Below the pieces are notes generated by a model. The model was not told the origin of the DNA, did no database searches, and worked only from the letters and a program-made list of their open reading frames with translations. DNA of 64,000 bases from a virus (taxonomy: Duplodnaviria > Caudoviricetes): IMG/VR virus record IMGVR_UViG_2744054895_000001, positions 30,790-94,789 of that record. One strand, written 5' to 3'. Of this stretch, positions 21,651 to 64,000 are shown one piece after another (the first letter of the stretch is position 1; each line of letters opens with the position of its first letter). Position numbers and translations under genes: made by a program.

Positions 21651-22533
21651 TTACTTTATGACTGCGTAGGAATTCGGACCGTAACTGTCCGCGACCTTGA
21701 AGTCCCATCCCTCGTGCGCGAACGTGAGCTGGGAAACGGCGAATGTATTGCTTCCAGCGTCGAGGTCACCAAAGGCAACCGAGGTGGGCCAAGCGTTGTA
21801 GAGGCGCCATACCGCCTTTACTGCTGCCTTGCTCTTGGTAACCGGGTGGTCGATGAGCATGATGTCGATCGTGGCCCGGAATTCTGAGCCGGTATCGGAT
21901 CCGGATCCGTTGCCCTGCATGACGTCGAAGAGCTGGTACATCCAGTTCACGAGTTTCTGGTCGCCCGGCATCATTCCCTTGGAAAGGGTGACGGGGCTGA
22001 AGTCGCTCTGACCCAGAGGCTGTTACCTCTCCGGTTTCCCGGAGCGGGCTGGTCATTTCTGCCAGCCTCTCGCATTCTCATGCGAGTTCGGACTCTATCT
22101 TCACCCCAGAGGGGTGTCCCGTACATAGTCTCTGGACCTTCCCGTCGGTTTCCCAGGCGGGCTCGGCTGCTGATTTTCCCTACCCTCGGACTTCTCAAGC
22201 CGTCGCGCTCAGGCTTTCGCCCCACGCTGTGGCGCCGAGGTCTAACAGGACGTTCCAGCAATTCTCGGGATTTTCACTCGCTACTTACGCAGCGAGGGCC
22301 CAGTCAAGTTGAGGCATTTTCTGAGTGGTCGTGTTCATGCCGCCGGCCCTGTATGCGATGACGTCAGTCGTCACGGAAAGGCCGGAAACCGACATGAAGC
22401 CGAGCTTTGGATAGGCAGAGGACAGCTTGCCGACCTGGCTGATCTGGACGTGGAACTTGAACGAGCGAAGGGGGTCCGTCTGTCGCGAGGCCAGGCTCTG
22501 GCTTTGCGAGACGGTCTTGAGGGTGGATGCCAT
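21651..22533 (-). CDS. Tail tube protein (T4 gp19-like), two exons 22533-22312 and 22013-21651, 194 aa spliced
   Basis: Exon 1 DPLRSFKFHV..GF..VSGL..YRAGGMNTTTQKMP joins in frame to GQSDFSPVTLSKG..WRLYNAWP..LTFAHEGW. Confidence 0.9.
22014..22311 (-). ncRNA. Group I self-splicing intron (298 nt, no ORF)
   Basis: 5' exon ends in U, intron ends in G; P AAUUGCUGGAA, Q AAUCAGCAGC, R CAGAGACUA, S AAGAUAGAGUCC; P1 GCCU/GGGC with U.G; P10 UGACU/GGUCA. Confidence 0.93.
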
Positions 22534-26410: not shown

Positions 26411-28015
26411 TCAGCTCTGGAGGAGCGCGTTGATGACTCCTGCGACGTAGGAGTGGCCGGCGTCGGACATGAGGACGGAATCCGTTCCTGCGGCTCCCGC
26501 ATTTGCTGGGTCAGCCCAGTAGCCCAGCGAGTTCCAGTGGTTCCAGGAGTTGCGTCCCATGGCCCACAGGTTGATGACTGCTGCGTCGAAGGCGCGGGCG
26601 AGTCCGTCTGCGCGGTCGATGAAGTCCTGGTAGCAGAAGGTGGCCGTGTCGGCTGTGCCGACGTGTGGGAGCAGGATGACGATGTCAGTGGCCCCGGTTG
26701 CGGCACCGCCGTCGCGGATGTTCGACAGGTGCTGGCGTACGGATGTGGCCCATGCGTCAGCGTCGATTCCGCTGATGATGTCGTCGGCGCTGACCGCATA
26801 GATGACGAGGTCGCACGGGTAGTTGGGGCCGCCGTTCCAGGGCAGCTTCAGCGTCGGTAGGTACTCGCTCGCGACGGCGTTGCGACGGGCAAAGTTGTTG
26901 AGCACGATGCCGGTCGAGTTCTCGCCGGCGACGCCGAAAACGGAGAGGTACTGGCTGCTGGTGCCCGTGTGGGTCAGCTTGACCGTGTGGGTGCCTGCGG
27001 ACAGGCCGGTGACCTTGGTGGCGATGACGGCGCGACCGGTGGTGGCAGTGTCGGCGACAGCGACCGCGGTGCCGCTGTCGATGGTGTAGCTCCACGGCGA
27101 GTGCTGGCCGTCCGCGCCGAGGGTAAAGATCGTGACGCTGGTGCCCCTCACAGTGAAGGTGAGGGTGTGGCCGTTGGTCGAGCTGTAGAGATAGCCCCAG
27201 CCGGGACCTGCGGAGTAACCGCCGATGTTCCACGTGCCGGTTTGGCCGATCAGCTCACCGGAGCTGGTCCAGGTCGTGATGGCGGTGCTCTCCTGGCCGG
27301 CGATGCCCTGCGTGCTCAGCAGGGAGGTGTAGAAGCCGGTGCCTCCGTCGCCGTGGGTGCTCTGAAGTGAAGCGGCCAGCAGGCCGGGCCATGCCTTGGA
27401 GCGGAGCCTTGATGCGAGGAAGCCGACGGTGGAGGAGCCGCCGATGACGGCGATGGTCGCCTTGCCGGCGCCGGCCTTCGCCGCGTCTCGCTTCGGGCGC
27501 CAGAACTCTCCCCAGGTGGAGGGGAGGGTGTAACCCTTCGTGCCCTGGAGCGTGGTGTTCGGGTTCGACGAGCCGCCGCCCGCGTCCGACGGGAGCTGGC
27601 TTGCGGTCAGTTTGCCGTCCGGGCCTAGGGACGCGATGCCGCCTGCTATGCCGACCTGGGAGACGTCGAGGACCGTGTGGCCGCCCTGCGTGAAGGTGCC
27701 GTCGGTGCCGAGTAGGGCAGGCCCGACACGCTTCAGGGTCACGTCAGGATCCTCAGCACCGGTCCCGAACCCGACGACACCATCCGGGGCGACCTGGAAG
27801 CGGGGCATAGTGTCGGTGTCCGTCTGTACGGTCAAGGCTGGCCCATGGTCTGCGGGCAGCGCCAGGTTCACGGGCTGGCGAAGGCGCTGGTAGCGGGCGT
27901 CGGCCTGCTCGTTGGTGATGTAGTCGGTGGACGTGGTGGTGCCAACGGTGGCGGTGTCCTCGTAGGTGGTCAGATTCTCTTCCACAAAGGCGTCAGGGTG
28001 TTCGTAGGTGGCCAT
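26411..28015 (-). CDS. Virion-associated SGNH/GDSL hydrolase-domain protein
   Basis: GIASLGPDGKLTASQLP fibre motif; IAVIGGSSTVG..; degenerate C-terminal DSVLMSDAGH. Confidence 0.6.
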   Translation of the reverse strand: MATYEHPDAFVEENLTTYEDTATVGTTTSTDYITNEQADARYQRLRQPVNLALPADHGPALTVQTDTDTMPRFQVAPDGVVGFGTGAEDPDVTLKRVGPALLGTDGTFTQGGHTVLDVSQVGIAGGIASLGPDGKLTASQLPSDAGGGSSNPNTTLQGTKGYTLPSTWGEFWRPKRDAAKAGAGKATIAVIGGSSTVGFLASRLRSKAWPGLLAASLQSTHGDGGTGFYTSLLSTQGIAGQESTAITTWTSSGELIGQTGTWNIGGYSAGPGWGYLYSSTNGHTLTFTVRGTSVTIFTLGADGQHSPWSYTIDSGTAVAVADTATTGRAVIATKVTGLSAGTHTVKLTHTGTSSQYLSVFGVAGENSTGIVLNNFARRNAVASEYLPTLKLPWNGGPNYPCDLVIYAVSADDIISGIDADAWATSVRQHLSNIRDGGAATGATDIVILLPHVGTADTATFCYQDFIDRADGLARAFDAAVINLWAMGRNSWNHWNSLGYWADPANAGAAGTDSVLMSDAGHSYVAGVINALLQS

Positions 28016-31496: not shown

Positions 31497-32783
31497 CTAG
31501 TTCGTCTCGGCGATGACGACCGAAGCGTCGGTGATCAAGCCGAGCCCGAAGATCGAATACCAGCTCAGCAGGTGTTCACGACCGAAGTCCTGGACGCCGC
31601 CGTCCCTCAACTCGACCGGCAGGGAGATCGCATGACCGAAGGCATTGTCACCAATGCAAATACTCTGGTAGACGTCGGCAGGGGTCGCCCCGTTGCCGTT
31701 TCCGATCTTCTTGGTTTGGGTGGTCTCGATGAAGATCACGTCATCGATCCTGCCGATCTCGCCGAGGCTGAAGGCCCCCGGCTGCGCGTACTTCGAGGAC
31801 TCGATCCAGGTCGGGTCCTCACGCAGCCAGCGCGATTGATGCGGATGCACGAAACACACGTAAACATCGCCCAATCGCGGGATGTTTCGGGTCGCGAGGG
31901 TCTCGACCATGTCCTTGACCAGGGCGGAGGTGAACCGGTGGTTGCCGGTCAGGCCGGCGCGGTTCGGGGCCGGGGCGCCCTTGTCGTAGGGGGAGATGCG
32001 GGTAATCGCGTTACCCGTGGTGGCGAACTTGTCGTAGCCGTAGAGCACGGAGGTGGCCTGGAGGAGCGTGTCCCGCGCCTGCTCGTCAAGGTACTTCGCC
32101 ATGTTCCGCCCCAGGAGGCGAGAGCCGGACGCGAGCACGTCATCGAAGGACGAGTTGAGCAGGAGCTCGGAGACGGCGATGGCGTAGCCGTGCTCACTGA
32201 CAGTAATCGAGAACTGACTGGCCGTCAGGGCATGGGTTTCCATGCGGACACCTTCGACGAGCTGCGAGGCGTCGCCGAGGTTGTCGTAACGCATGAAGTG
32301 GATCACGAGGCCGGGGCTGACCCCCAGCTCAGTCTTCTTGCAGCTCTGTTACCTCTCCCCTCAGGGAGCGGGCTGGTCATTTCTGCCAGCCTCTGCATCT
32401 TTCCCATTGATGCAGGCCAGACTATATCTTCATCTCCAGTTCCAGTGGGCCGAAGCACCTAGCCACTGGGCCTGTTGGAGATGCCACCCGTGTAGTCGTT
32501 ACGGAGTCCCAGGTGTTGGGTTCCCTCGGTATTCCCCGTGGTGACGAATGAGTGCTACGAGGAGGAGGGGTTCACCGATACAGGGCGGTTTTCACTGACA
32601 GGTCGCCCTGTCAGGCGGCCAATATCAAACCGCGAACTGCTCGAAGCGCAGGATCGGCATCGACTGGAACAGAATTTCCTTCGACCAGAGTTCCTGGATG
32701 GCCGGGGAAAGCTGCGAGTTCGCGCCGGCGTAGTTGGTCGGAGACGCCGACAGACGCGGCGTACCGGTGATGGCAGAAGCCAT
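31497..32783 (-). CDS. Major capsid protein (N4-gp56 family), two exons 32783-32629 and 32340-31497, 332 aa spliced
   Basis: Exon 1 MASAITG..WSKEILFQSMPILRFEQFA(V) plus exon 2 KKTELGVSPGLVIHFMRYDNL..EHGYA..VHP..GEIGRIDDVIFIET; junction codon GT|C. Confidence 0.9.
32341..32628 (-). ncRNA. Group I self-splicing intron (288 nt, no ORF)
   Basis: Exon GCGGU pairs with GCCGC (U.G at splice site); P UAUCGGUGAA, Q AAUACCGAGG, R GUAACGACUA, S AAGAUAUAGUCU; terminal G; removal restores the frame. Confidence 0.93.
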
Positions 32784-54837: not shown

Positions 54838-55649
54838 CCAACGGCACAATGACGCTCCGTGTTGCCCAGCCCGGTTGCGTCGCCGACCGGTGCGCTGGAA
54901 AGCTGCTAAGCGTGACCGGCTCGGCGACTTTCGTGGCTCTCCGTCTACGAAATCGCGAAACCCACCCCAGTCACGCACGGCTACTGTCCTAATTGCTCGA
55001 CCCGGTGGCCATACAAGTGATCAGGGGGGAGTCGTCGGCTTTACCCGTTTAAGGGTGGGGGTGTCCGTTTCATTCCTTCTGTTTCAGCCAATAGTCATGC
55101 ACGACCTTGCATACATTCCCATGCGCGTGCGTATGCCCGTTTCGCACCCTATGTCGACTAGGACAGTCTCTCCACCGTTTGGGTAACTCCCAAATTCCCA
55201 TTTGGGTGCGCCCCCAACTGCGGAAACCTCGCCTGGTCACCTAAAAGGTTGTCAGTAGTGCGAAAGTCAACCCTCGCGCGACACCTTTTCCTGCATAAAG
55301 TCGACAGTTACAGTTCGTAAACAGATACTGTCAACCCAGGGTTGCGGAGTCGTGGGGCCACCCCCTGACAAACGGACCATCAGATACGCAGAGAGTTACT
55401 CAACGTGCATATATGCAGGTCACAGGCATAGATTCGGCCACGCGGATGCACTGTACCAATAGACCGTCAGTTACTTAGGCTTACCTCTGTCAGCAGTTAC
55501 AGAGCGTCAGAATGGCGGAAAGTAGCGAAAGTGGCTTGCTGGCTACCGAGCGTGCGCACGGCGCAGCATGGCACAACGCATCCACCTACTCACTGTGTGT
55601 ATGGGGGAAGCATGCCGACCACTTCCCGCACTCCCCGAAAAAATCCCTA

Positions 55650-55925
55650 GGCGCCGCTGTGAGCCGCTGTGAGGCAGGCGAGGCAGCGTGAGCCGTGACG
55701 AGGCAGCGTGAGCCGCTACAGGCGCCGCTGTGAGCCGTAGGCATACCGAGCAACCGTGAGCCGCTGGGAGCGCTACAGGCACCGCTAGGCAGCGTGCCGA
55801 CCGAACGTGAGCCGCTAGGCGCCGCTGTGAGCCGCTGTCAGGTGTCGAGCGGCGCCGCTGTAGCCATGGCGCACATGAGCGGCTGTGAGCCGCTGTGAGG
55901 CAGCGTGCCGAGCAGCTGCTAGCCG
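55650..55925 (+). repeat. Degenerate direct-repeat array, 8 x GTGAGCCG
   Basis: Copies at 55659, 55688, 55708, 55730, 55756, 55807, 55827, 55885; longer GGCGCCGCTGTGAGCCG three times. Confidence 0.8.
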
Positions 55926-56162
55926 TACCTACTGCCTACGTGGTGCATGCGTAGGGAGTGTGCCGACCACCCATCACCCCCTGAATCTCCAGGGCCGTCG
56001 AGCCATGAATCGGACATAAAGCCTCATATAGGGGCGATCGAGTGGCCGGCAATTCGTGGTCACGGAAAGTAGTTCCCTGTCACGATTGGTCACGCGCCGC
56101 AGGTCACGACAGGTGCGAGATGTCGAGATTCAAGAGATTGCGAGATGGCTCGCGATTCTGGG

Positions 56163-56192
56163 TTGTGCGAGGTACCTCGCACCACCTAATGT
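56163..56192 (+). promoter_or_regulatory. Putative housekeeping-sigma promoter TTGTGC-N18-TAATGT overlapped by a perfect 18-bp palindrome
   Basis: GTGCGAGGTACCTCGCAC at 56165-56182; about 100 nt upstream of boxA. Confidence 0.55.
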
Positions 56193-56252
56193 TCTCTGTG
56201 TCGGAACGAGGAACCACCGGAAACGGGGGAACCGAGTGAAGGCGGATGAATC

Positions 56253-56315
56253 GCACGGACGAAAGCCCTACGGGGTCAGTAGAAAGGCAGCGATCGTTCC
56301 TTGAGAACTCAACAG
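56253..56315 (+). promoter_or_regulatory. rRNA-operon leader / boxA antitermination mimic
   Basis: GGACGAAAGCCCTACGGGGTCAGTAGAAAGGCAGCGATCGTTCCTTGAGAACTCAACAG resembles the Streptomyces rrn leader as recalled (GGAGGAAAGCCCGAGAGGGTGAGTACAAAGGAAGCGTCCGTTCCTTGAGAACTCAACAG). Confidence 0.8.
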
Positions 56316-56319
56316 TGGA

Positions 56320-56985
56320 TATAGACGCACGGGAACGGTAACGACGTTTCTGCGCGGGGGTCGAGGGACCCCCACTATCGGCCGACGTGTCGATAGGGCG
56401 TGCATGCAACAGGGGTGAGGTATGCCTACTGTTGCCGAAGGATTAGAGTCCGGGACCAAATGCGCGTGGCTAGACGTCCGTGGCTTTCACAGCATGGAGA
56501 CAGATAGTCAGTGGATACGTGGTGGCAAGAGCTAACACAGAGGTACCGCCACCGTTACCCGTAGCGTCACTCTCTCTCATATCGCGCCGGATTTATCTGT
56601 GCGCGATACGGGGAGCGTTGCTCTTACAGGGCGCTCCCCTACCCTCTCTGTTTGGTCCGTTTACCGACGGACAACGCAGTACCGAGAGAGTCTGTCTAGG
56701 TTTCCGGTTGGAATCCAAGCTAAACCCACCATGCGTTCAGTGTGCTAGCACTGCATGGCCGTCGTCTGATGACGTAAGTGAGGGGTGTCGTGGGGTCTAG
56801 CAGCCCCAAGTAGGTCAGTTACATCGAGGCCGAATCCCGGGTGCTTTCACAGGTCCTAAGCGAATTCCGATTCCTAGACGCTCTCTCAATCTCATGCACT
56901 ACGGTGCGGCAGGGGCATGCCGGCTTGTCATGCGCGCATTTCCCTGCCGTAGCCGAGAGCCAACGGAGTGGTGTCCGTTGGTCAC
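56320..56985 (+). ncRNA. Candidate large structured leader/ncRNA
   Basis: No credible ORF; many hairpins; long-range stems 56324-56338/56552-56568 and 56684-56700/56873-56887. Confidence 0.55.
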
Positions 56986-57003
56986 CCATGAGAGGAGAGA
57001 ACA

Positions 57004-57489
57004 ATGTCTCATCGCCAGGCGATTACCCGTGAGGATTACCTGTCGGCGCTGAGTGCCGCCCAGTTCGGCGATGTCGCTCCGTTTCTGGCGCGATGCTGCC
57101 CGGACTGCGGTGCGGGTGATGAGTCCGCATCGGATGGGAAGCACGCTGTCATGGGCGGCAGTGTCGTGATCGGATGCGACGGATCCATGCTCGTGAACCC
57201 CAATCTTCTGGGATTCAACGTGGAACTGTGGCTCGACTGGCGTCATATGGAATCCGACAACGTGCCCGAGGACGCCTCTGTGTGGGCATATGAGGGCGTG
57301 ATCTGGCGGACCGGCGCGAAGGTGCGTCCGGCCCGGCCGACGGAGTACGAGGACGGTCTGACCGGAACTCTCGTGCGTATTGCCCTGGAGCACAGCTTCG
57401 GCGATACCGAAGCAACGCTCTGGGTCCAGTGGCACAACAACACGAGCGGTCCGGACTATCACGGATACGGTGACATCGTTCTGATCTGA
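57004..57489 (+). CDS. hypothetical Cys/His protein (paralog of 60233-60931)
   Basis: GAGAGGAGAG RBS; CPDC..HAVMGGSVVIGCDG..VNPN..WLDWR. Confidence 0.75.
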   Translation: MSHRQAITREDYLSALSAAQFGDVAPFLARCCPDCGAGDESASDGKHAVMGGSVVIGCDGSMLVNPNLLGFNVELWLDWRHMESDNVPEDASVWAYEGVIWRTGAKVRPARPTEYEDGLTGTLVRIALEHSFGDTEATLWVQWHNNTSGPDYHGYGDIVLI

Positions 57490-57490
57490 A

Positions 57491-57558
57491 AGTCGTCCCG
57501 GCGACTCTAAATAGGCGTTAGGCCGGGAGCGTCCGTACGGAATTCCGTACGGGGTCGC
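57491..57558 (+). ncRNA. Pistol self-cleaving ribozyme 1
   Basis: P1 AGUCG/CGACU, loop UCCCGG pairs with CCGGGA, UAAAUAG, P2 GCG/CGC, UUAGG, GCGU, P3 CCGUACGG hairpin, G|U site 57554/57555. Confidence 0.9.
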
Positions 57559-57611
57559 AGCAGCGCTGCGGGTCAGGGGTGGTGCCCTGTCTGTGTCGAG
57601 AGGAGAGAGCA

Positions 57612-58139
57612 ATGAGCATCAGTCCGATCAACTGGTCCGAGCGCATCATGCGTCCCCGGTCCGGTGCGTGGAAGCAGTGCCCTAACTGCAAGCGGCGGAA
57701 CGTCTCCATTCGCTCCCCGCATTCCCACACCGACGGCCGACCGTGCAAGTTCGTGGTGATCTACCGCACGTACTTCACGATGGACATGATCCATGACGGC
57801 GACTACGGCCAGATCAGGAACGAGGACGGCTCTTTCGGTGACGGTCCCCTCCAGACTTACGAGATTGTGGACTGCGCGCCGAAGGACGTCTCCGGTCCAT
57901 GGGACAACCCCGTCAAGCTCGCAATCGACGCCATTCGTGACGCCGATTGCGCGTACGACGAGGGTGCCGACTGGTTTTACCACCACGACGGCTCGTACAT
58001 CCGAGACCACTACTCGGGTGAGCGCATCGACCCGTCCGCGCACCTCTGGGGGTTCACGGACGAGGAAGACGAGCGCGTCCACCACGTGATCCAGCGCGGG
58101 TGGAAGCAATTCTGGGCGAGCCTGCGTAAGGCCGCCTAA
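57612..58139 (+). CDS. hypothetical protein (CxxC..H..C)
   Basis: GAGAGGAGAGAG RBS, ATG 57612. Confidence 0.75.
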   Translation: MSISPINWSERIMRPRSGAWKQCPNCKRRNVSIRSPHSHTDGRPCKFVVIYRTYFTMDMIHDGDYGQIRNEDGSFGDGPLQTYEIVDCAPKDVSGPWDNPVKLAIDAIRDADCAYDEGADWFYHHDGSYIRDHYSGERIDPSAHLWGFTDEEDERVHHVIQRGWKQFWASLRKAA

Positions 58140-58140
58140 C

Positions 58141-58208
58141 AGTCGACTCGGCGACTCTAAATAGGCGTTAGGCCGAGTGCGTCCGTACGGAATTCCGTGC
58201 GGGGTCGC
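58141..58208 (+). ncRNA. Pistol self-cleaving ribozyme 2
   Basis: Same fold with compensatory pseudoknot ACUCGG/CCGAGU; G|U site 58204/58205. Confidence 0.9.
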
Positions 58209-58241
58209 AGGGGTGGTTCCCTGCCACGAGAGGAGAGAGCT

Positions 58242-58952
58242 ATGTCTGCGCAGACCCTCGAAATGGTTGCGTCCGACTTTCTGTACGGCTCCACCGAGGA
58301 GGCCCTGAACGAACTGTTCGCGGCCCCGCCGGCCATGGAGCCGCACACTGACGCGCGCTTCGACAAGGGCAACGACACGATCGTCATCGACGGGGTGCAG
58401 TTCTACGCCAAGCGCGTGGACTACCACCGTGAGATGGACGAGAAGTTCGTCCAGTGGGTGATGGAAAACCGCCAGGGGTTTCCGGTCTACGGCGACCCGT
58501 CCTCTGCGGACGGCGAGTCGTTGGAACTCTGGGCACAGTCCATCACGGACAAGTACTTCGGGTCCCCCTACATCTCCGGCATCGACACGGACGGCTACGA
58601 GTCGTTCATGCCGAACGGGGTCAAGGGCCAGTTCTTCCGGTACGAGGACGAGACGTACGTCGCCCTGTGGCAGCAGTGCACCGGATACCGCGCACGCACG
58701 CGTCCGATGGTGTTCCACGTGTCCTGCCACGAGTCCGCCTACCTGCTGGACGACGACAAGGCCACGGCGTACTGCACCGAGTGCGAGGACGTCGTGTTCG
58801 ACATCGAGTCCGGCGGGCAGCACATCAAGCGCATCGACCGGAACGGCGAAGAGATCGACGACGCCCCGGAGGTGTCATTCGACGACCTGGTCGGCCATCC
58901 CGTCTGCCCCAAGTGCGGTTCCGATCTGCGTGTCGAGGCCGCGAATTTCTGA
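58242..58952 (+). CDS. hypothetical acidic protein with C-terminal zinc ribbon
   Basis: RBS; CTEC...CPKCG. Confidence 0.75.
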   Translation: MSAQTLEMVASDFLYGSTEEALNELFAAPPAMEPHTDARFDKGNDTIVIDGVQFYAKRVDYHREMDEKFVQWVMENRQGFPVYGDPSSADGESLELWAQSITDKYFGSPYISGIDTDGYESFMPNGVKGQFFRYEDETYVALWQQCTGYRARTRPMVFHVSCHESAYLLDDDKATAYCTECEDVVFDIESGGQHIKRIDRNGEEIDDAPEVSFDDLVGHPVCPKCGSDLRVEAANF

Positions 58953-58961
58953 ATTCATTCA

Positions 58962-59021
58962 TGCCGAAACTCCGTGAGGAGTCGTCCCAAGGTGGTGCTT
59001 GGGACCTGATGATGGCAGCCA
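58962..59021 (+). ncRNA. Type II hammerhead ribozyme 1
   Basis: UGCC-GAAA-CUCC(GUGA)GGAG-UC|GUCCCAAG(GUGGUG)CUUGGGAC-CUGAUGA-U-GGCA; cut after 58983. Confidence 0.92.
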
Positions 59022-59053
59022 ATGTCTGAGTCAGTGTTGAGAGGAGAGAGCTT

Positions 59054-59617
59054 ATGTCTGACCTGCGCATCTACGTGGCGAGTCTGTCCGACTACAACAA
59101 CAGCATTCTCCACGGTCGATGGATCGACGCTGACCAGGATGTCCAGGCCATCAACGATGAGATCGCTGAGATGCTGAAGGAGTCGCCTGCGGCCCAGAAG
59201 TATGGCGATGTCGCGGAGGAGTATGCCATCCACGACTACGACGGATTCGGGGATTTCAATCTCGGCGAGTATGAATCGCTGGAGAAGATTACGTCCATTG
59301 CCAAGGCACTGGATGAGTTTCCCTCTTGTGTAGTCGCTTGGTTCTTCCGCGAGTGCTCCCACATGGAGTTCGACGAGATTGTGGACACCATCCGCGAGAA
59401 GTCGATCACCACGATCGAGGATCAGTGGGGCAATGAAACGGACGCGCTGGCTGAGTATCTCTTCGACCAGATCGAAGAGAGTGGTGACCTGCCGGAGCAG
59501 TACAAGAATCACCAGATGGCCATAGCCAAGAGCATGGCGCACGATGCCGTCTGCGGCGGGGAATACAACATCCTCTACGAGGGCGGCGGCAAGTACCACA
59601 TCTTCGAGGTCCTGTGA
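59054..59617 (+). CDS. ardA: Antirestriction protein ArdA (DNA mimic)
   Basis: RIYVASLSDYNNSILHGRWIDA..EEYAIHDYDGF..LGEYESL; very acidic. Confidence 0.88.
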   Translation: MSDLRIYVASLSDYNNSILHGRWIDADQDVQAINDEIAEMLKESPAAQKYGDVAEEYAIHDYDGFGDFNLGEYESLEKITSIAKALDEFPSCVVAWFFRECSHMEFDEIVDTIREKSITTIEDQWGNETDALAEYLFDQIEESGDLPEQYKNHQMAIAKSMAHDAVCGGEYNILYEGGGKYHIFEVL

Positions 59618-59622
59618 CCAAT

Positions 59623-59682
59623 TGCCGAAACCCCTTCGGGGGTCGTCTCAGGGTGGTGCCTGGGGCCTGACGATGGCAGCCA
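59623..59682 (+). ncRNA. Type II hammerhead ribozyme 2
   Basis: UGCC-GAAA-CCCC(UUCG)GGGG-UC|GUCUCAGG(GUGGUG)CCUGGGGC-CUGACGA-U-GGCA; cut after 59644. Confidence 0.92.
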
Positions 59683-59705
59683 TTGTCGGTTTCGAGAGGA
59701 GAGTT

Positions 59706-60140
59706 GTGACGAGACACGCTATCCGGGCGATGCGAGGAATAATGCGTCGCAGGGATCAGGACTACGCGTGGATTCCATCGCTGGGCCATGGAGTTCTCTA
59801 TGACCCCGATAACCCTACCTGCCCGCACTCTGTCACAAGAGCGGCAGTTCGTGCGCTCCCGAGCGGAACACGCACGATGTCTTGCAGGATAAGTAACAGG
59901 TCTCGCGCGTTGGAGCTCGTAGTCCGAGAATTGGCTACGGAATGGTACTGCGACATCGCAGACATACGATCTATCGTGGCCGACAGGTTCCGGGGATTCG
60001 GGGACAGCGAACAATCCGCACTCGACGATGCAATCACGAGTGGCCTTACTTCCCCGACTTCTCTGGAGAACGTCAAGCACGGGTGCATGACGGAATTCCG
60101 CAAGACGCCGTTCGGTGTGGTCATGCTCGATCAGGGTTAA
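59706..60140 (+). CDS. hypothetical protein
   Basis: GTG after GAGAGGAGAG; lower GC than neighbours. Confidence 0.65.
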   Translation: MTRHAIRAMRGIMRRRDQDYAWIPSLGHGVLYDPDNPTCPHSVTRAAVRALPSGTRTMSCRISNRSRALELVVRELATEWYCDIADIRSIVADRFRGFGDSEQSALDDAITSGLTSPTSLENVKHGCMTEFRKTPFGVVMLDQG

Positions 60141-60146
60141 TCAAAA

Positions 60147-60206
60147 GCCGAAACCCCTTCGGGGGTCGTCGTGGGGTGGTGCCCACGGCCTGATGACGGC
60201 AGCCGC
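60147..60206 (+). ncRNA. Type II hammerhead ribozyme 3
   Basis: GCC-GAAA-CCCC(UUCG)GGGG-UC|GUCGUGGG(GUGGUG)CCCACGGC-CUGAUGA-C-GGC; cut after 60167. Confidence 0.92.
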
Positions 60207-60232
60207 TGAAGTCAGTTCTGAGAGGAGAGAGC

Positions 60233-60931
60233 ATGAAGCCCGAGGAATTGGAGTACCTGGACGCCGTGCGTCAGACACCCCTCGGACGCATCGAGCCTTA
60301 CCTGTCTTCGGTCTGTCGTGACTGCGACGGACAGGTGGACTCGTCGAATTTGGCTGGGCACGTGATGATCGGCTCACATGTCGTTATCTGCTGTGAGGGT
60401 TACTTCATGGTGGACCCGAACGTGGTCGGCATCCCGTCGCCGAATTGGTCGGACTGGCGCGAGAAGGCAGAGTCCAATCCCAAGTCGCTGTATAAGCAGG
60501 GTGAGTTCCTGGCTGCGCACGCCCTAGAACTGGGCGTCTCGTACGACAGCGATCTTCCTGCGTCCGCCTTCCACCCGAAGCTCGTCGGCGCGGCCATTGC
60601 CGCTCTGCGTGCATGGCTGGAGGTCAACTGGGGCAGCGCAGCAGTCCGCGAGGCCGAAAAGGAGGCCCTCGGTCACACCGGAGACGGGATGTATGTCGGC
60701 ACGGTCGACAAGCTCAACTACCAGGGGAAGACCCTGTGGGTTGGTGATCGTGTGCGCTGCGCGAACCAGGATGCGCAGGGGAACGACCTGTCTTTCTCCG
60801 GGGTGCTAGCCAAGATCGAGCTGGAGTACTGGGGGTCCGAACTGAAGCCGACGGTCAATGTGCGCGCTCCCGAAGCGACGCACGACGATCCGATCGGATG
60901 GGAGGACCTGAGCCGCGTAACGTCGTCGTAG
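60233..60931 (+). CDS. hypothetical Cys/His protein (paralog of 57004-57489)
   Basis: CRDC..HVMIGSHVVICCEG..VDPN..WSDWR. Confidence 0.75.
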   Translation: MKPEELEYLDAVRQTPLGRIEPYLSSVCRDCDGQVDSSNLAGHVMIGSHVVICCEGYFMVDPNVVGIPSPNWSDWREKAESNPKSLYKQGEFLAAHALELGVSYDSDLPASAFHPKLVGAAIAALRAWLEVNWGSAAVREAEKEALGHTGDGMYVGTVDKLNYQGKTLWVGDRVRCANQDAQGNDLSFSGVLAKIELEYWGSELKPTVNVRAPEATHDDPIGWEDLSRVTSS

Positions 60932-60948
60932 TTTGGATTCGCCTACAA

Positions 60949-61010
60949 GCCGAAACCTCCGAGAGGAGGTCGTCGTGGGGTGGTGCCCACGGCCTGATGA
61001 AGGCAGCCGC
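60949..61010 (+). ncRNA. Type II hammerhead ribozyme 4
   Basis: GCC-GAAA-CCUCC(GAGA)GGAGG-UC|stem I-CUGAUGA-A-GGC; cut after 60971. Confidence 0.92.
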
Positions 61011-61037
61011 TGAAGTCAGTTCTGAGAGGAGAGAGTT

Positions 61038-61538
61038 ATGGGTCTGAGCAAGCAGGATGTCCGCGCGATCAGGAACGCTGATGGACTGGTGTTCTTCCAC
61101 AACGCCCCGATTTCTCGGGGCGGTGAGCGCATGAACTGGCTCAAGTGCATCCGCGACGGTTCGAAGACTTCGAGTGGTTTCGAGGACTTCCACGTCGTCC
61201 GGCTGGAGAGCACGTCCATCACGTACTACGGGGAGGACGCGCACACCAAGCACTCGGCGTCCCTCGGTGACGAAAAGGTCGTCGGGTCCGTCTACATCAG
61301 CTCCCCCGGCATGCTGCCGCAGCATGAGACCTGGATGCGAGCGCTCCGCGAGGGTGATGAACTCCGGGTCCAGATGTGGCTGGGCAACAACAACGGCTAC
61401 CTCAAGGAGTCGGGGATGGCGCATGACTACGCGTGGTTGGACATCCGGCGCCCGAAGACGGACGCCAGGACAAGGTACTGGCTGGGCAATGTGATCTGCC
61501 CGGCGACCAGCACGTGCCGCATGCTGAGGGCGCTCTGA
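61038..61538 (+). CDS. hypothetical protein
   Basis: Strong RBS, 166 aa. Confidence 0.75.
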   Translation: MGLSKQDVRAIRNADGLVFFHNAPISRGGERMNWLKCIRDGSKTSSGFEDFHVVRLESTSITYYGEDAHTKHSASLGDEKVVGSVYISSPGMLPQHETWMRALREGDELRVQMWLGNNNGYLKESGMAHDYAWLDIRRPKTDARTRYWLGNVICPATSTCRMLRAL

Positions 61539-61602
61539 ACCAGCGGTAGAAGGCTCGCCGGCTGAGGTGTGTTCTCTGTCGGCGGCCCTGCCGTGCCTAA
61601 TT

Positions 61603-61662
61603 TGCCGAAACTCCGTGAGGAGTCGTCGTGGGGTGGTGCCCACGGCCTGACGAAGGCAGCCA
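61603..61662 (+). ncRNA. Type II hammerhead ribozyme 5
   Basis: UGCC-GAAA-CUCC(GUGA)GGAG-UC|stem I-CUGACGA-A-GGCA; cut after 61624. Confidence 0.92.
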
Positions 61663-61694
61663 ATCGCTGAGTCAGTATTGAGAGGAGAGAGCAC

Positions 61695-62519
61695 ATGAGC
61701 ATCAGAAAAGTGCTGGTCTCGGCTGATGACGTTCACGCGTACGAAGCCATGGTCGACACGGAGGCTCCGCTGTGGAACGGGTTTCTTTCGCCCCGCTTCA
61801 CTCTGGAGGCCGTGAAGCAGATAGCTTCTGACATGCAGGAGGATCTGAAGAGGTCCGGCTACGCCGATCAGGAGGAGATCCGCGTCATCGAGGCCCCCGG
61901 TTTGTTCGGGGAAAGCGAGGACAGGGTCGACGAGTTCGGCGAGCCGATCCAGATCCCTGCGGTGGTGGTGCTCCATATCAGTTGGACGTACGTCTTCGAT
62001 GACGACCCGGAGTCCTGCGCGAAGGTGGTTGCGCCCGGCAAAGACGGGTTGTACGCCGTTGGCGCATGGGAGTGGACGTGGAGCGAGATCAGTCCGAACA
62101 TCTCCCAGCGCGCGGAGTATCTATTCGACTTCGCGACCGCGGCCATCAATGAGGCTGTCTGGTACGAAGTCGAGCCGACTGAGGACGACGAGGACCAGAC
62201 GCTCGGCATGGAGTGGGAAGCCGTCGAGGCCCTGAACCTGGGGATCAACAGCGTGCATCTCAACATGCGCTCCGCCTTCATGTCCGCGCTCGGGGAGTTC
62301 ATCGACGCCAATGCGCAGGTGCTGAACGGCATCCCTGCCGACCAGGCCGGCTATGCCTTCTGGCACTCCATGCGCGGGGTGGACGGCATCAAGTCCCGTT
62401 CGTTCCTCGGAAGGCGTGAGATCCCCGCAGAGGTTCGCCAGCGTCTCCACGAGACGGCGCGTACGCACTCGTACAGCAGCGTTCGATTCGTCGGAGACAT
62501 GCTCCACATCGAGAGCTAG
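61695..62519 (+). CDS. hypothetical acidic protein
   Basis: Strong RBS; WNGFLSPRFT..GLYAVGAWEWTW. Confidence 0.75.
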   Translation: MSIRKVLVSADDVHAYEAMVDTEAPLWNGFLSPRFTLEAVKQIASDMQEDLKRSGYADQEEIRVIEAPGLFGESEDRVDEFGEPIQIPAVVVLHISWTYVFDDDPESCAKVVAPGKDGLYAVGAWEWTWSEISPNISQRAEYLFDFATAAINEAVWYEVEPTEDDEDQTLGMEWEAVEALNLGINSVHLNMRSAFMSALGEFIDANAQVLNGIPADQAGYAFWHSMRGVDGIKSRSFLGRREIPAEVRQRLHETARTHSYSSVRFVGDMLHIES

Positions 62520-62527
62520 CTCAACAA

Positions 62528-62589
62528 TGCCGAAACCTCCGAGAGGAGGTCGTCGTGGGGTGGTGCCCACGGCCTGATGAAGGCAGCCA
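62528..62589 (+). ncRNA. Type II hammerhead ribozyme 6
   Basis: UGCC-GAAA-CCUCC(GAGA)GGAGG-UC|stem I-CUGAUGA-A-GGCA; cut after 62551. Confidence 0.92.
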
Positions 62590-62620
62590 ATCGCTGAGTC
62601 AGTGTTGAGAGGAGAGAGCT

Positions 62621-63217
62621 ATGCGGACTGCTTCAACTATGATCGGTTTCGCGATCGTCGAGGACGACGACTTCGACCTGGAGAACTTCAGCGACTCCGA
62701 AGCGCTCATCAAGGAGTGCGGCGAGAAGCTGGAGTCTGGGGAGTGGACCGTCTGCGGCATCGTGGCCGTGGTCCACGGCGAACTTCGATACGAGGCCGCC
62801 CTGTGGGGCACCGTCATCGAGGGCTGGCACTTCGGCAGGTACAAGACCGTGGAGGACATCCGCGACCCGTACCTCCGAGAGGTCGCCGAGGACATCGCCG
62901 ATCAGGCGCAGGATCTCATCCCGGTGACGCACGCCGACGACTCACCTGACGCGCTGGTCGGTCACGTGGTGGCCGTCCGGCCGTACTACTACGAGCCATC
63001 CGGTCCCGGATCCTTCCGCTCCAAGCGTTCCCCATTCATCGCCCGTGCGGAGGTGAAGGAGACGTTCGGGGAGGAGATGGTCGTCCTGCGGTTCCTGGAG
63101 GACGCCGGTCCGTGGCCGCGCGACGGTGCCTACTACCCGCGCGAGTTGCACAAGGTGCAGGCGTGCAAGTGCCCCGCATGTACCTCCGGTGGCATCGGCA
63201 TACACCAGGGAGCTTGA
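62621..63217 (+). CDS. hypothetical protein
   Basis: Strong RBS, acidic N-half, C-terminal CxCxxC. Confidence 0.72.
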   Translation: MRTASTMIGFAIVEDDDFDLENFSDSEALIKECGEKLESGEWTVCGIVAVVHGELRYEAALWGTVIEGWHFGRYKTVEDIRDPYLREVAEDIADQAQDLIPVTHADDSPDALVGHVVAVRPYYYEPSGPGSFRSKRSPFIARAEVKETFGEEMVVLRFLEDAGPWPRDGAYYPRELHKVQACKCPACTSGGIGIHQGA

Positions 63218-63280
63218 TCCAGACGCAGAGGACTCGTCGGCTTGCCATGCACGTCGGCCGACGGATCCGCCATGCCTTAT

Positions 63281-63343
63281 TGCCGAAACCTCCTGCAAGG
63301 AGGTCGTCACGGGGTGGTGCCCGTGGCCTGACGAAGGCAGCCC
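63281..63343 (+). ncRNA. Type II hammerhead ribozyme 7
   Basis: UGCC-GAAA-CCUCC(UGCAA)GGAGG-UC|GUCACGGG(GUGGUG)CCCGUGGC-CUGACGA-A-GGCA; covarying stem I; cut after 63305. Confidence 0.92.
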
Positions 63344-63370
63344 TTGGTCAGTTCTGAGAGGAGAGAGCAC

Positions 63371-64000
63371 ATGATCAGCACCGGCAAGCCCGAGGTCAAC
63401 CCGGCTACCTTCGTGCTCGCGGAGGATGACGGGGTGGTCACGGTACAGGTGTCCGTCACCTACCCGATGGATGGTGAGGCCATCGTCGCCAAGCTCTACG
63501 CGGCGTACAGCAAGCCGTTCGAGAACGGCACGCCCCTCCCCGAGCAGTTGACCATGCAGGACGTCATGCGCACGCTCGCGCAGGAGTCCGCCAACTGCGC
63601 GGACGGCTGGCACTTCTGGGAGTCCGAGCCAGGCCAGGCGGCGTGGGACGCGGTTCATCCGTGGGCGGAGGCTCAGGTCCGTCGTCTCTTTCCCATGCTG
63701 ACGTGGCCAGAGGAGCAGTGGTCCGAGTATGCCGAGGTCGGCCGGATGGTCGAGCATCTCCGGCAGATGGGGATCCCCGCCGAGGAGATCAGCACAGGTG
63801 GCGGCTGCTGGGCCGCGCGTGTGGCGCTTTGCCAGGGGCACGATCTGAACCTGACCATCGCGTCCGGTGAGGACTGGTGTTGGCAGATCTACCGCGAGGG
63901 CGAGCAGAGCATGGCCGGCTACTGGCCGGGGTCTGACATTCCGCGTGCCGCCCGGCGCACCAAGAAGCTCATCAAGGGGCTCGGCAACGTGGTTGCCTGA
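63371..64000 (+). CDS. hypothetical protein
   Basis: ATG 63371 after GAGAGGAGAGAG; stop at window end. Confidence 0.72.
   Translation: MISTGKPEVNPATFVLAEDDGVVTVQVSVTYPMDGEAIVAKLYAAYSKPFENGTPLPEQLTMQDVMRTLAQESANCADGWHFWESEPGQAAWDAVHPWAEAQVRRLFPMLTWPEEQWSEYAEVGRMVEHLRQMGIPAEEISTGGGCWAARVALCQGHDLNLTIASGEDWCWQIYREGEQSMAGYWPGSDIPRAARRTKKLIKGLGNVVA

What the first reader, a model, noticed from the sequence alone, without database searches (positions are those of the whole stretch)
58962..63343. Seven type II hammerheads with a shared one-nucleotide insertion after the CUGANGA core
All seven read GCC-GAAA-stem III-UC|stem I (8 bp, GUGGUG loop)-CUGA(U/C)GA-N-GGC. Stem III varies (CUCC/GGAG, CCCC/GGGG, CCUCC/GGAGG, mostly with GNRA or UUCG loops). 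Stem I covaries (GUCCCAAG/CUUGGGAC, GUCUCAGG/CCUGGGGC, GUCGUGGG/CCCACGGC, GUCACGGG/CCCGUGGC). Every copy has an extra variable base (U, C or A) between A9 and G10.1 and a short 3-4 bp stem II. The invariant GCC just 3' of stem II could pair with loop I (GGU), the pseudoknot known for type II hammerheads; this pairing is inferred.
Basis: partly seen in the sequence, partly recalled or inferred. Interest (0 to 1): 0.85.

Follow-up and report, generated by a model that had tools for sequence, protein, structure and literature searches.

The report
Hammerhead ribozyme array in Streptomyces prophage
Seven genuine self-cutting hammerhead RNAs sit in front of seven consecutive accessory genes of a Streptomyces prophage, but this layout, the extra core base and the loop-tail pairing are all common in phages, so the find is a good but ordinary example.

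Summary
Rfam finds seven type II hammerheads (RF02276, 47-56 bits, cut-off 37) at the stated places, and stems I and III covary among the copies. Every copy has one extra base (U, U, C, A, A, A, A) between A9 and G10.1.

The extra base is not special. In a sample of phage type II hammerheads chosen without regard to that site, 36 of 86 carry it, and 9 of 15 multi-copy loci mix both forms. The site is already known to tolerate an insertion in a viroid and in Penelope-element hammerheads. The loop I/GCC pairing is the published type II pseudoknot.

The array belongs to a Streptomyces prophage family with arrays of 8, 8 and 16 hammerheads plus pistol ribozymes. Cultured Streptomyces phages such as Alvy carry the same ribozyme. 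ArdA follows copy 1, an association reported in 2011. This scan has found similar arrays on other DNA.

The one feature specific to this family is a conserved downstream strand complementary to the catalytic core, present in 34 of 38 cassettes. The most likely function is cutting the operon transcript into single-gene mRNAs. Cleavage itself is untested.

The parts
58962..59024 (+). Hammerhead 1 (type II). Predicted cleavage between C58983 and G58984. Extra base U59013. Followed by ardA.
   Evidence: Rfam RF02276 49.9 bits; parse and cleavage site; MFE is the hammerhead fold
59623..59685 (+). Hammerhead 2. Predicted cleavage 59644|59645. Extra base U59674. The tail 59680-59689 can pair with the whole core strand (10 bp).
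   Evidence: Rfam 48.0 bits
60146..60208 (+). Hammerhead 3. Predicted cleavage 60167|60168. Extra base C60197, which can pair with G12.
   Evidence: Rfam 50.8 bits
60948..61012 (+). Hammerhead 4. Predicted cleavage 60971|60972. Extra base A61001.
   Evidence: Rfam 55.4 bits
61603..61665 (+). Hammerhead 5. Predicted cleavage 61624|61625. Extra base A61654.
   Evidence: Rfam 47.3 bits
62528..62592 (+). Hammerhead 6. Predicted cleavage 62551|62552. Extra base A62581.
   Evidence: Rfam 56.2 bits
63281..63346 (+). Hammerhead 7. Predicted cleavage 63305|63306. Extra base A63335.
   Evidence: Rfam 51.4 bits
57491..57559 (+). Pistol ribozyme 1, in the same intergenic slot one gene upstream of the hammerhead array
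   Evidence: Rfam RF02679 68.4 bits, cut-off 34.5
58141..58209 (+). Pistol ribozyme 2, in the same slot
   Evidence: Rfam RF02679 67.3 bits
59030..59034 (+). Downstream 'anti-core' GUCAG of cassette 1, complementary to core C3-N7. Equivalent elements lie at 59680-59689, 60211-60215, 61015-61019, 61671-61675, 62598-62602 and 63347-63351.
   Evidence: Read. In the 3' product MFE it pairs with the core in 6 of 7 copies. Enrichment is 34 of 38 against a shuffled mean of 3.05.
59054..59617 (+). ardA-like anti-restriction gene, directly after hammerhead 1
   Evidence: Pfam PF07275 E=7.1e-25; phrog_2059 E=4e-22
57004..64000 (+). Operon of ten genes, each preceded by the ribosome-binding site GAGAGGAGAG. 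Predicted cleavage site to start codon is 59-70 nt in the window. The record ends at the last stop codon.
   Evidence: ORFs; RBS motif with 12 matches (10 of them in the array) against 1.83 expected; 11 exact matches in the whole record, 10 in the array; distances

Best explanation
The seven elements are functional type II hammerhead ribozymes of the known pseudoknot-stabilised phage kind. They sit in the intergenic spacers of one + strand accessory-gene operon (ArdA plus nine unknown genes) of a Streptomyces prophage.

Each ribozyme is predicted to cut itself after C17 of GUC. This splits the long transcript into single-gene mRNAs. Each upstream piece ends in the G+C-rich stem III hairpin with a 2',3'-cyclic phosphate. 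Each downstream piece starts with a 5'-OH directly at the 8-bp stem I hairpin and carries a leader of 59-70 nt before a constant ribosome-binding site.

The extra base between A9 and G10.1 is a bulge that the fold tolerates. It is a common natural polymorphism, not a new mechanism.

Shown here: family membership, covariation, the frequency of the insertion, and conservation of the cassette across relatives. Inferred: that cleavage happens, and what it does to mRNA stability and translation.
For: Family membership. All 7 copies score above the Rfam cut-off, with intact cores CUGAYGA, GAAA, A15.1-U16.1, C17 and G10.1-C11.1. Compensatory changes occur in stems I and III within the window.

Wider covariation. 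Among 150 homologues aligned with my model R1 (140 distinct), 98.6% of 2367 cells pair. Both-side changes fill 506 cells against 140.8 +/- 8.4 in shuffles, reached by 0 of 500 shuffles; slid registers pair 37-50%. That alignment is fitted to the model, so it leans towards the structure.

Pseudoknot. It covaries in an unbiased sample.

Relatives. Four Streptomyces genome loci share 66-90% nucleotide identity with parts of the operon. In these loci plus the window, all 38 hammerheads found by my structural parse have intact cores, carry the insertion, and sit 59-74 nt before a start codon.

Literature. Perreault 2011 (PMC3088659, section 6 read) showed cleavage of clustered prophage hammerheads in roughly 2-kb transcripts and in E. 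coli. The paper proposed processing into single-gene mRNAs and noted ardA directly downstream of hammerheads. The same holds here.

Insertion tolerance. A passage in PMC3705267, summarising De la Pena & Flores 2001, says the extra A10 lowers the rate moderately, U raises it 3-4 fold, and C or G are detrimental. My counts match the preference for U and the avoidance of G. N was U 100, A 10, C 4, G 0 in 114 unique sequences. N was U in 35 of the 36 insertions in the unbiased sample.
Against: No cleavage or expression data exist for this sequence, and no sequencing run could be listed.

When the leader is included, the predicted MFE pairs the catalytic core with a downstream strand, instead of forming stem II, in 31 of 38 cassettes. 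The median energy gap is 3.45 kcal/mol and reaches 8.2 for hammerhead 2. The pseudoknot is not counted in these energies. Some copies may therefore cut poorly or only conditionally.

C at the inserted position occurs in 1 of 7 copies here and in 11 of 38 across the family. It can pair with G12 and was detrimental in the viroid scaffold.

The biological role of bacterial and phage hammerheads is still described as largely elusive (PMC6765202, passages read).
Confidence: 0.8

Rival explanations
1. Conditional or self-locking ribozymes. In this prophage family each hammerhead is coupled to a conserved downstream anti-core strand (RUCAG, up to 10 bp in hammerhead 2). This strand either holds the ribozyme in an inactive fold until something opens it, or snaps shut after cleavage. 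Snapping shut would eject the upstream fragment, block re-ligation and fix a two-hairpin leader with a free ribosome-binding site. This refines the main reading and does not exclude it.
For: 34 of 38 cassettes hold at least 5 bp complementary to C3-N7 between AGCC and the RBS. Shuffled tails give a mean of 3.05 and a maximum of 10 in 1000 shuffles; 25 of 29 distinct tails have the complement.

The 3' cleavage product folds this way in 6 of 7 window copies.

The feature is specific to the family. Streptomyces arrays score 26 of 31 against 7.4 +/- 2.3. Other phage hammerheads are at or below chance: 15 of 90 against 17.3, 28 of 318 against 50.0, and 14 of 149 against 24.9.

C7 always faces G (25 of 25). 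U7 faces G 7 times, A 2 times and U 4 times.

The right half of the motif persists where the left half of the CUGAGUCAG palindrome is missing.
Against: The core is invariant, so true covariation cannot be shown.

The cassettes are related by descent.

In many copies the motif is part of a DNA palindrome (GCTGAGTCAGC) that could be a protein-binding site instead.

The energy gaps are small (median 3.45 kcal/mol), and the thermodynamic model ignores the pseudoknot.
Confidence: 0.35
2. The one-base insertion defines a distinct hammerhead subclass with altered catalysis or metal use. This is the special significance that the first reader implied.
For: All 7 copies here and all 38 in the Streptomyces family carry it. 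With a GCC/GGC stem II and an AGCC tail, the inserted form far outnumbers the form without it: at least 119 viral stretches against 19.
Against: In the unbiased sample, both forms have the same 3-bp stem II: 35 of the 36 inserted forms and 39 of the 50 uninserted forms. The two forms co-occur in 9 of 15 multi-copy loci, as expected for a near-neutral polymorphism. The same site tolerates an extra base in unrelated type III and Penelope-element hammerheads (PMC3705267 and PMC4209133, passages). The rest of the core is canonical.
Confidence: 0.07
3. The copies no longer cleave. They persist as structured leaders, transcript-stabilising hairpins or homologous joints for shuffling gene cassettes.
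For: Homology blocks between the window and its relatives begin and end at ribozyme cassettes or start codons. Three leaders without a hammerhead still carry the GUGGUG-loop hairpin.
Against: Every catalytic position is intact in 38 of 38 copies, while the stems change by compensatory substitutions. That pattern points to selection on the active fold. Pistol ribozymes, an unrelated self-cleaving fold, fill the same slot, which argues that cleavage is the selected function.
Confidence: 0.05

Closest known systems
Type II hammerhead ribozymes with a loop I / 3'-tail pseudoknot (Rfam RF02276; Perreault et al. 2011, PMC3088659)
   Same: The topology is the same: stems I and III are capped and stem II is open. 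The core is the same, stem II is short, and a UGG(U/C)/GCCA-type pseudoknot lies immediately 3' of stem II. The setting is intergenic in a prophage. The Rfam score is above the cut-off for all seven.
   Different: Relative to the Rfam consensus the copies have one more stem II pair and one bulged base after A9 (alignment). My sample shows this form is itself common.
Hammerheads with an extra nucleotide between A9 and G10.1: CChMVd (+) with A10, and Penelope-like-element hammerheads
   Same: The position of the extra base is the same. U is preferred and G avoided in natural phage copies, matching the kinetic ranking quoted in PMC3705267.
   Different: Those are type III viroid and type I retroelement ribozymes. 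Here the scaffold is type II with a pseudoknot, and A and C are frequent in the Streptomyces family (A 18, C 11, U 9 of 38). De la Pena & Flores 2001 itself is not held. I know it only from citing passages.
Clustered prophage hammerheads flanking ardA and small genes (A. tumefaciens, Legionella; Perreault 2011, section 6)
   Same: Several ribozymes flank single genes in one transcript, and ardA lies directly downstream of a hammerhead.
   Different: The array here is larger: 7 hammerheads plus 2 pistols, and 16 plus 3 in a relative. The leader and RBS cassette is uniform, and there is a family-specific anti-core strand.
Hammerheads of cultured Streptomyces phages (Alvy and 26 other records)
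   Same: The ribozyme is 79-90% identical over about 50-62 nt. Alvy has 10 RF02276 matches above the cut-off, and the Alvy copy that I read carries a U insertion.
   Different: That Alvy tail lacks the GUCAG anti-core and the GAGAGGAGAG RBS. The GenBank records do not annotate the ribozymes.
RiboJ-type synthetic insulators (a hammerhead plus a hairpin upstream of an RBS); recalled from memory, not checked in any call
   Same: A ribozyme removes the upstream context, and a following hairpin leaves a defined leader with a free RBS.
   Different: The element here is natural, repeated gene by gene, type II, and its second hairpin is built from the catalytic strand itself.

Membership tests
Hammerhead ribozyme, type II (RF02276) | Conserved core C3-U4-G5-A6-N7-G8-A9 and G12-A13-A14 | tested here: met
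   CUGA(U/C)GA and GAAA are invariant in 7 of 7 copies and in 38 of 38 family copies
Hammerhead ribozyme, type II (RF02276) | A15.1-U16.1 pair and a cleavable H17 (not G) | tested here: met
   A-U in 7 of 7 (pair 8-24); C17 in 7 of 7
Hammerhead ribozyme, type II (RF02276) | Three helices around the core, supported by covariation | tested here: met
   96.8% paired, 6 pairs changed on both sides, 0 of 500 shuffles as high; 98.6% paired over 140 distinct homologues, 13 of 17 pairs changed on both sides (model-fitted alignment).
Hammerhead ribozyme, type II (RF02276) | Type II permutation: stems I and III closed by loops, stem II open | tested here: met
   Alignment and folds
Hammerhead ribozyme, type II (RF02276) | G10.1-C11.1 directly abutting A9 and G12 | tested here: inconclusive
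   The G-C pair is present in 7 of 7 copies but is separated from A9 by one bulged base. The same is true of 36 of 86 unbiased phage type II hammerheads, so this is variation within the family and not grounds for exclusion.
Hammerhead ribozyme, type II (RF02276) | Pseudoknot between loop I and the tail 3' of stem II | tested here: met
   UGGU/GCCR is possible as 4 bp in 6 of 7 copies and as 3 bp in 1. It covaries across the wider sample. It is invariant within the window.
Hammerhead ribozyme, type II (RF02276) | Score above the curated Rfam gathering threshold | tested here: met
   47.3-56.2 bits against 37
Hammerhead ribozyme, type II (RF02276) | Site-specific self-cleavage giving 2',3'-cyclic phosphate and 5'-OH ends | not testable with these tools
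   No RNA data were available; no run was listed

The most novel reading that the evidence does not exclude
In this Streptomyces prophage family the hammerhead is one half of a two-state leader. A conserved strand 15-30 nt downstream (RUCAG; a full 10-bp complement in hammerhead 2) competes with the catalytic fold. Cleavage would then be confined to a short co-transcriptional or factor-dependent window. After the cut, the core is locked into a hairpin that makes the cut irreversible and insulates the ribosome-binding site. The identity of the inserted base (A, C or U) and the strength of the anti-core would set a different cutting efficiency at each gene junction. That would give graded, gene-by-gene expression from one transcript.
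Probability: 0.3. Interest if true: 0.55.

Novelty: new member of a known kind. Interest (0 to 1): 0.3.

Why it matters
The result mainly corrects a first impression. The extra base after A9 is a frequent natural variant of phage type II hammerheads, seen in about 4 of 10 in my sample. Rfam-style consensus models and motif searches that demand G10.1 directly after A9 will undercount or mis-align such copies.

The locus is also a clean, regular system for asking what phage ribozyme arrays are for, a question the 2019 review (PMC6765202, passages read) still describes as largely elusive. It has ten genes with one uniform leader. Two unrelated ribozyme classes are used interchangeably. An anti-restriction gene is among the cargo. 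Cultured Streptomyces phages carrying the same ribozyme are available for experiments.

The family-specific anti-core strand gives a concrete and cheap hypothesis to test about how cleavage is timed or made irreversible.

Tried and rejected
Near-identical phage DNA: megablast of 57000-64000 against the phage collection gave no match.

Relatedness to phage Samy: one ORF (26411-28015, minus strand) is 40% identical to Samy's tail fibre, but Samy has no RF02276 match. Samy is not a useful relative for the array.

Sequencing runs: none was listed for 57400-63400. This says nothing about expression.

Idea that the insertion compensates for a longer stem II: rejected. In the unbiased sample both forms have a 3-bp stem II (35 of the 36 inserted and 39 of the 50 uninserted).

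First stem-II classifier: it gave 32 insertions in 71. One of the 32 is an ambiguous G and not a U. The count was superseded by the fuller finder.

A regex missed every window and array copy because of greedy parsing. It was replaced.

16S-like fragment in the window: relatives have one upstream of the array, but cmscan of 55600-57100 at E<=10 found none.

Function of the other nine array proteins: no Pfam, PHROG or NCBIfam family matched (NCBIfam also missed ArdA).

Literature: searches, plus my reading of PMC3088659 sections 6 and 8, turned up no sentence on how common the 9/10.1 insertion is in type II hammerheads. Figures and supplements (Dataset S1, Figures S4-S8 of that paper) could not be seen and may show it. 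I therefore do not claim it is unreported. PMC2632901 passages held nothing on the extra base.

Full report
WHAT IS THERE. The window is the last 64 kb of a 94,789-nt IMG/VR provirus record. Rfam cmscan at curated thresholds finds seven type II hammerheads on the + strand at 58962-59024, 59623-59685, 60146-60208, 60948-61012, 61603-61665, 62528-62592 and 63281-63346. They score 47.3-56.2 bits against a cut-off of 37. It also finds two pistol ribozymes (57491-57559, 58141-58209) and a group I intron. A permissive scan of 30000-64000 adds no further ribozyme. The whole record holds exactly seven hammerheads, and 0 of 14 control genomes match.

ANATOMY. N is U, U, C, A, A, A, A. Only a one-base bulge after A9 lets GGC pair with GCC.

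Pair counts for the window: 96.8% of 154 cells pair. Four of 8 stem I pairs and 2 of 6 stem III pairs change on both sides. The covariation score is 0.323 against 0.163 +/- 0.023, reached by 0 of 500 shuffles, and slid registers pair 30-55%. The loop I/tail pairing (UGGU with GCCR) never varies inside the window.

Folding each ribozyme alone gives the hammerhead junction as the MFE in 4 of 7. HH3 gives a hammerhead-like fold in which the inserted C pairs with G12. HH2 shows the fold only in the centroid, and HH4 gives an alternative.

IS THE INSERTION UNUSUAL? No.
Among 114 unique sequences, the window's included, N was U 100, A 10, C 4 and G 0.
- The same pattern without N gave 19 stretches, a complete scan.
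In 113 of those loci a structural parser found 90 hammerheads. Of these, 88 were unique and 86 had a stem II of at least 2 bp. Among the 86, 36 carry a one-base insertion (35 U, 1 ambiguous G) and 50 carry none. Both forms mostly have a 3-bp stem II. Nine of 15 loci with several copies mix the two states.

A base at this site is also in print for other hammerheads. A passage in PMC3705267 summarises De la Pena & Flores 2001 (not held): an extra A10 in CChMVd (+) moderately lowers the rate, U raises it 3-4 fold, and C and G are detrimental. [quoted passage not shown] Perreault 2011 (PMC3088659, sections 6 and 8 read) discusses insertions A6a and U13a and says the cores match the consensus 'almost without exception'. 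I saw no sentence there on 9/10.1, but I could not see the figures or supplements.

PSEUDOKNOT. Perreault 2011 (sections 6-7 read) established the loop I/3'-tail pseudoknot for type II hammerheads by deletion, mutation and compensatory rescue. In my unbiased sample plus the window (68 distinct loop/tail pairs), the best helix between a ribozyme's own loop and its own tail averages 4.78 bp. With swapped tails it averages 3.41 +/- 0.11, and 0 of 1000 shuffles are as high. The window's UGGU/GCCA fits the commonest type.

RELATIVES.
Many of the listed ones are single copies in Planctomycetota. Streptomyces genomes hold arrays.
- Rfam on seven Streptomyces loci gave 46 hammerhead, 4 pistol and 2 SSU-rRNA-fragment matches.
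- Four loci (L367, L368, L379, L383) share 66-90% nucleotide identity with parts of the window's operon.
- Together with the window these four loci hold 38 hammerheads. All carry the insertion (A 18, C 11, U 9, G 0). All lie 59-74 nt upstream of a start codon behind the same RBS.
- L379 and L368 are contiguous: a hammerhead is split 34+29 model positions across their ends. One operon there therefore carries 16 hammerheads and 3 pistols.
- My model R1 found 246 matches at E<=0.001 in 100 sources (940,492 nt). The 150 best (140 distinct) pair in 98.6% of 2367 cells. Both-side changes fill 506 cells against 140.8 +/- 8.4, with 0 of 500 shuffles as high. The alignment is model-fitted.
- All 27 matching phage records are cultured Streptomyces phages, 79-90% identical over the ribozyme. 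Phage Alvy has 10 RF02276 matches above the cut-off, and the Alvy copy I read has a U insertion.
- Earlier notes of this scan describe comparable arrays on other DNA, including a Streptomyces prophage.

CONTEXT AND FUNCTION. Ten + strand genes (57004-64000) are each preceded by GAGAGGAGAG. That motif gave 12 matches with at most one mismatch in the window, 10 of them in the array, against 1.83 expected. The whole record holds 11 exact matches, 10 of them in the array. The gene after hammerhead 1 is ArdA (PF07275, 7.1e-25; phrog_2059). The other nine have no family. Perreault 2011 (section 6) reported ardA flanked by, or directly downstream of, hammerheads, and showed cleavage of clustered copies in long transcripts in vitro and in E. 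coli.

The most likely mechanism is therefore self-cleavage after C17 at each junction, giving single-gene mRNAs. Each would have a 3' stem III hairpin with a cyclic phosphate and a 5'-OH stem I hairpin leader. That two unrelated ribozyme folds fill the same slot here and in relatives argues that cleavage itself is what selection keeps. The effects on stability and translation are inference.

A FAMILY-SPECIFIC FEATURE. The conserved GUCAG downstream of each ribozyme is complementary to core C3-N7.
- In the 3' cleavage product the MFE pairs it with the core in 6 of 7 window copies. In hammerhead 2 the tail CCAUUGUCGG pairs with the whole strand CUGACGAUGG, including the inserted U.
- Across the family, 34 of 38 cassettes hold at least 5 bp of such complementarity. 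Shuffled tails give a mean of 3.05 and a maximum of 10 in 1000. The MFE of the uncut cassette pairs the core downstream in 31 of 38.
- Other phage hammerheads show no enrichment: 15 of 90 against 17.3, 28 of 318 against 50.0, and 14 of 149 against 24.9. The Streptomyces arrays show 26 of 31 against 7.4 +/- 2.3.
- The hammerhead-constrained fold is a median 3.45 kcal/mol (range 0-8.2) above the MFE, with the pseudoknot not counted. The two states are probably near balance, except in hammerhead-2-type cassettes.

I read this most simply as a post-cleavage lock and leader-organising hairpin. A conditional switch is possible. A DNA-level palindrome site is an alternative.

VERDICT. These are new members of a known kind, and an ordinary though very regular example. 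The anti-core strand and the A/C-rich insertion spectrum are the only family-specific traits worth a bench test.

Noticed in passing
window 57491-57559 and 58141-58209; L383 3177-3245; L379 4111-4179, 5158-5226, 5627-5692: Pistol ribozymes occupy the same pre-RBS slot as the hammerheads, both in the window and in related Streptomyces prophage arrays. Two unrelated self-cleaving folds are used interchangeably.
   Followed up: partly
window 56953-56978, 57564-57590, 58209-58226: The three leaders without a hammerhead still carry a hairpin with a GUGGUG or GUGGUU loop just before the same RBS. Two of them are followed by a tetranucleotide complementary to the loop (CACC, CCAC). The hairpin after pistol 1 begins GUC, like a stem I remnant.
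   Followed up: partly
L383 2422-2640 and L367 2080-2298; window 56614-56886: Relatives carry a fragment matching bacterial 16S rRNA model positions 101-347 (127-130 bits) about 0.5-1 kb upstream of the ribozyme array. In the window that exact segment is replaced by unrelated sequence, while both flanks stay homologous. The operon leader looks rrn-derived and mosaic.
   Followed up: partly
window 57486-63373 versus L367, L368, L379, L383: Homology blocks begin at the 5' edge of a ribozyme or at the RBS and end at the next start codon. Examples are 58228-59056, 60147-61040, 57598-59703 and 62528-63373. Gene cargo differs between relatives, with junctions in the repeated cassettes, which suggests cassette shuffling.
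   Followed up: partly
L379 4111-8000 continuing into L368 1-7341 (one Streptomyces contig): A single operon carries 16 type II hammerheads and 3 pistol ribozymes over about 12 kb. All 15 hammerheads that my parse resolved carry the 9/10.1 insertion; the 16th is split across the end of L379 and the start of L368.
   Followed up: partly
window 64000 (end of record): The provirus record ends exactly at the stop codon of the tenth array gene, so the array may continue in host-contig sequence that is not held.
   Followed up: no
window 22069-22321 (-) and 32393-32636 (-): A group I intron scores 68.5 bits (above the cut-off). A second match scores 44.4 bits, below the cut-off of 50. Earlier notes place them in tail tube and capsid genes.
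   Followed up: no
L487 1486-2316 (Streptomyces phage Alvy gp24): The annotated start of this hypothetical-protein CDS lies upstream of a hammerhead that spans about 1500-1563 of the locus. The CDS start is probably over-extended, and the ribozyme is not annotated.
   Followed up: no
window 60197 (HH3) and 11 of 38 family copies: When the inserted base is C it can pair with the catalytic G12, extending stem II to GCCG/CGGC in the predicted MFE. These copies may be slower.
   Followed up: no
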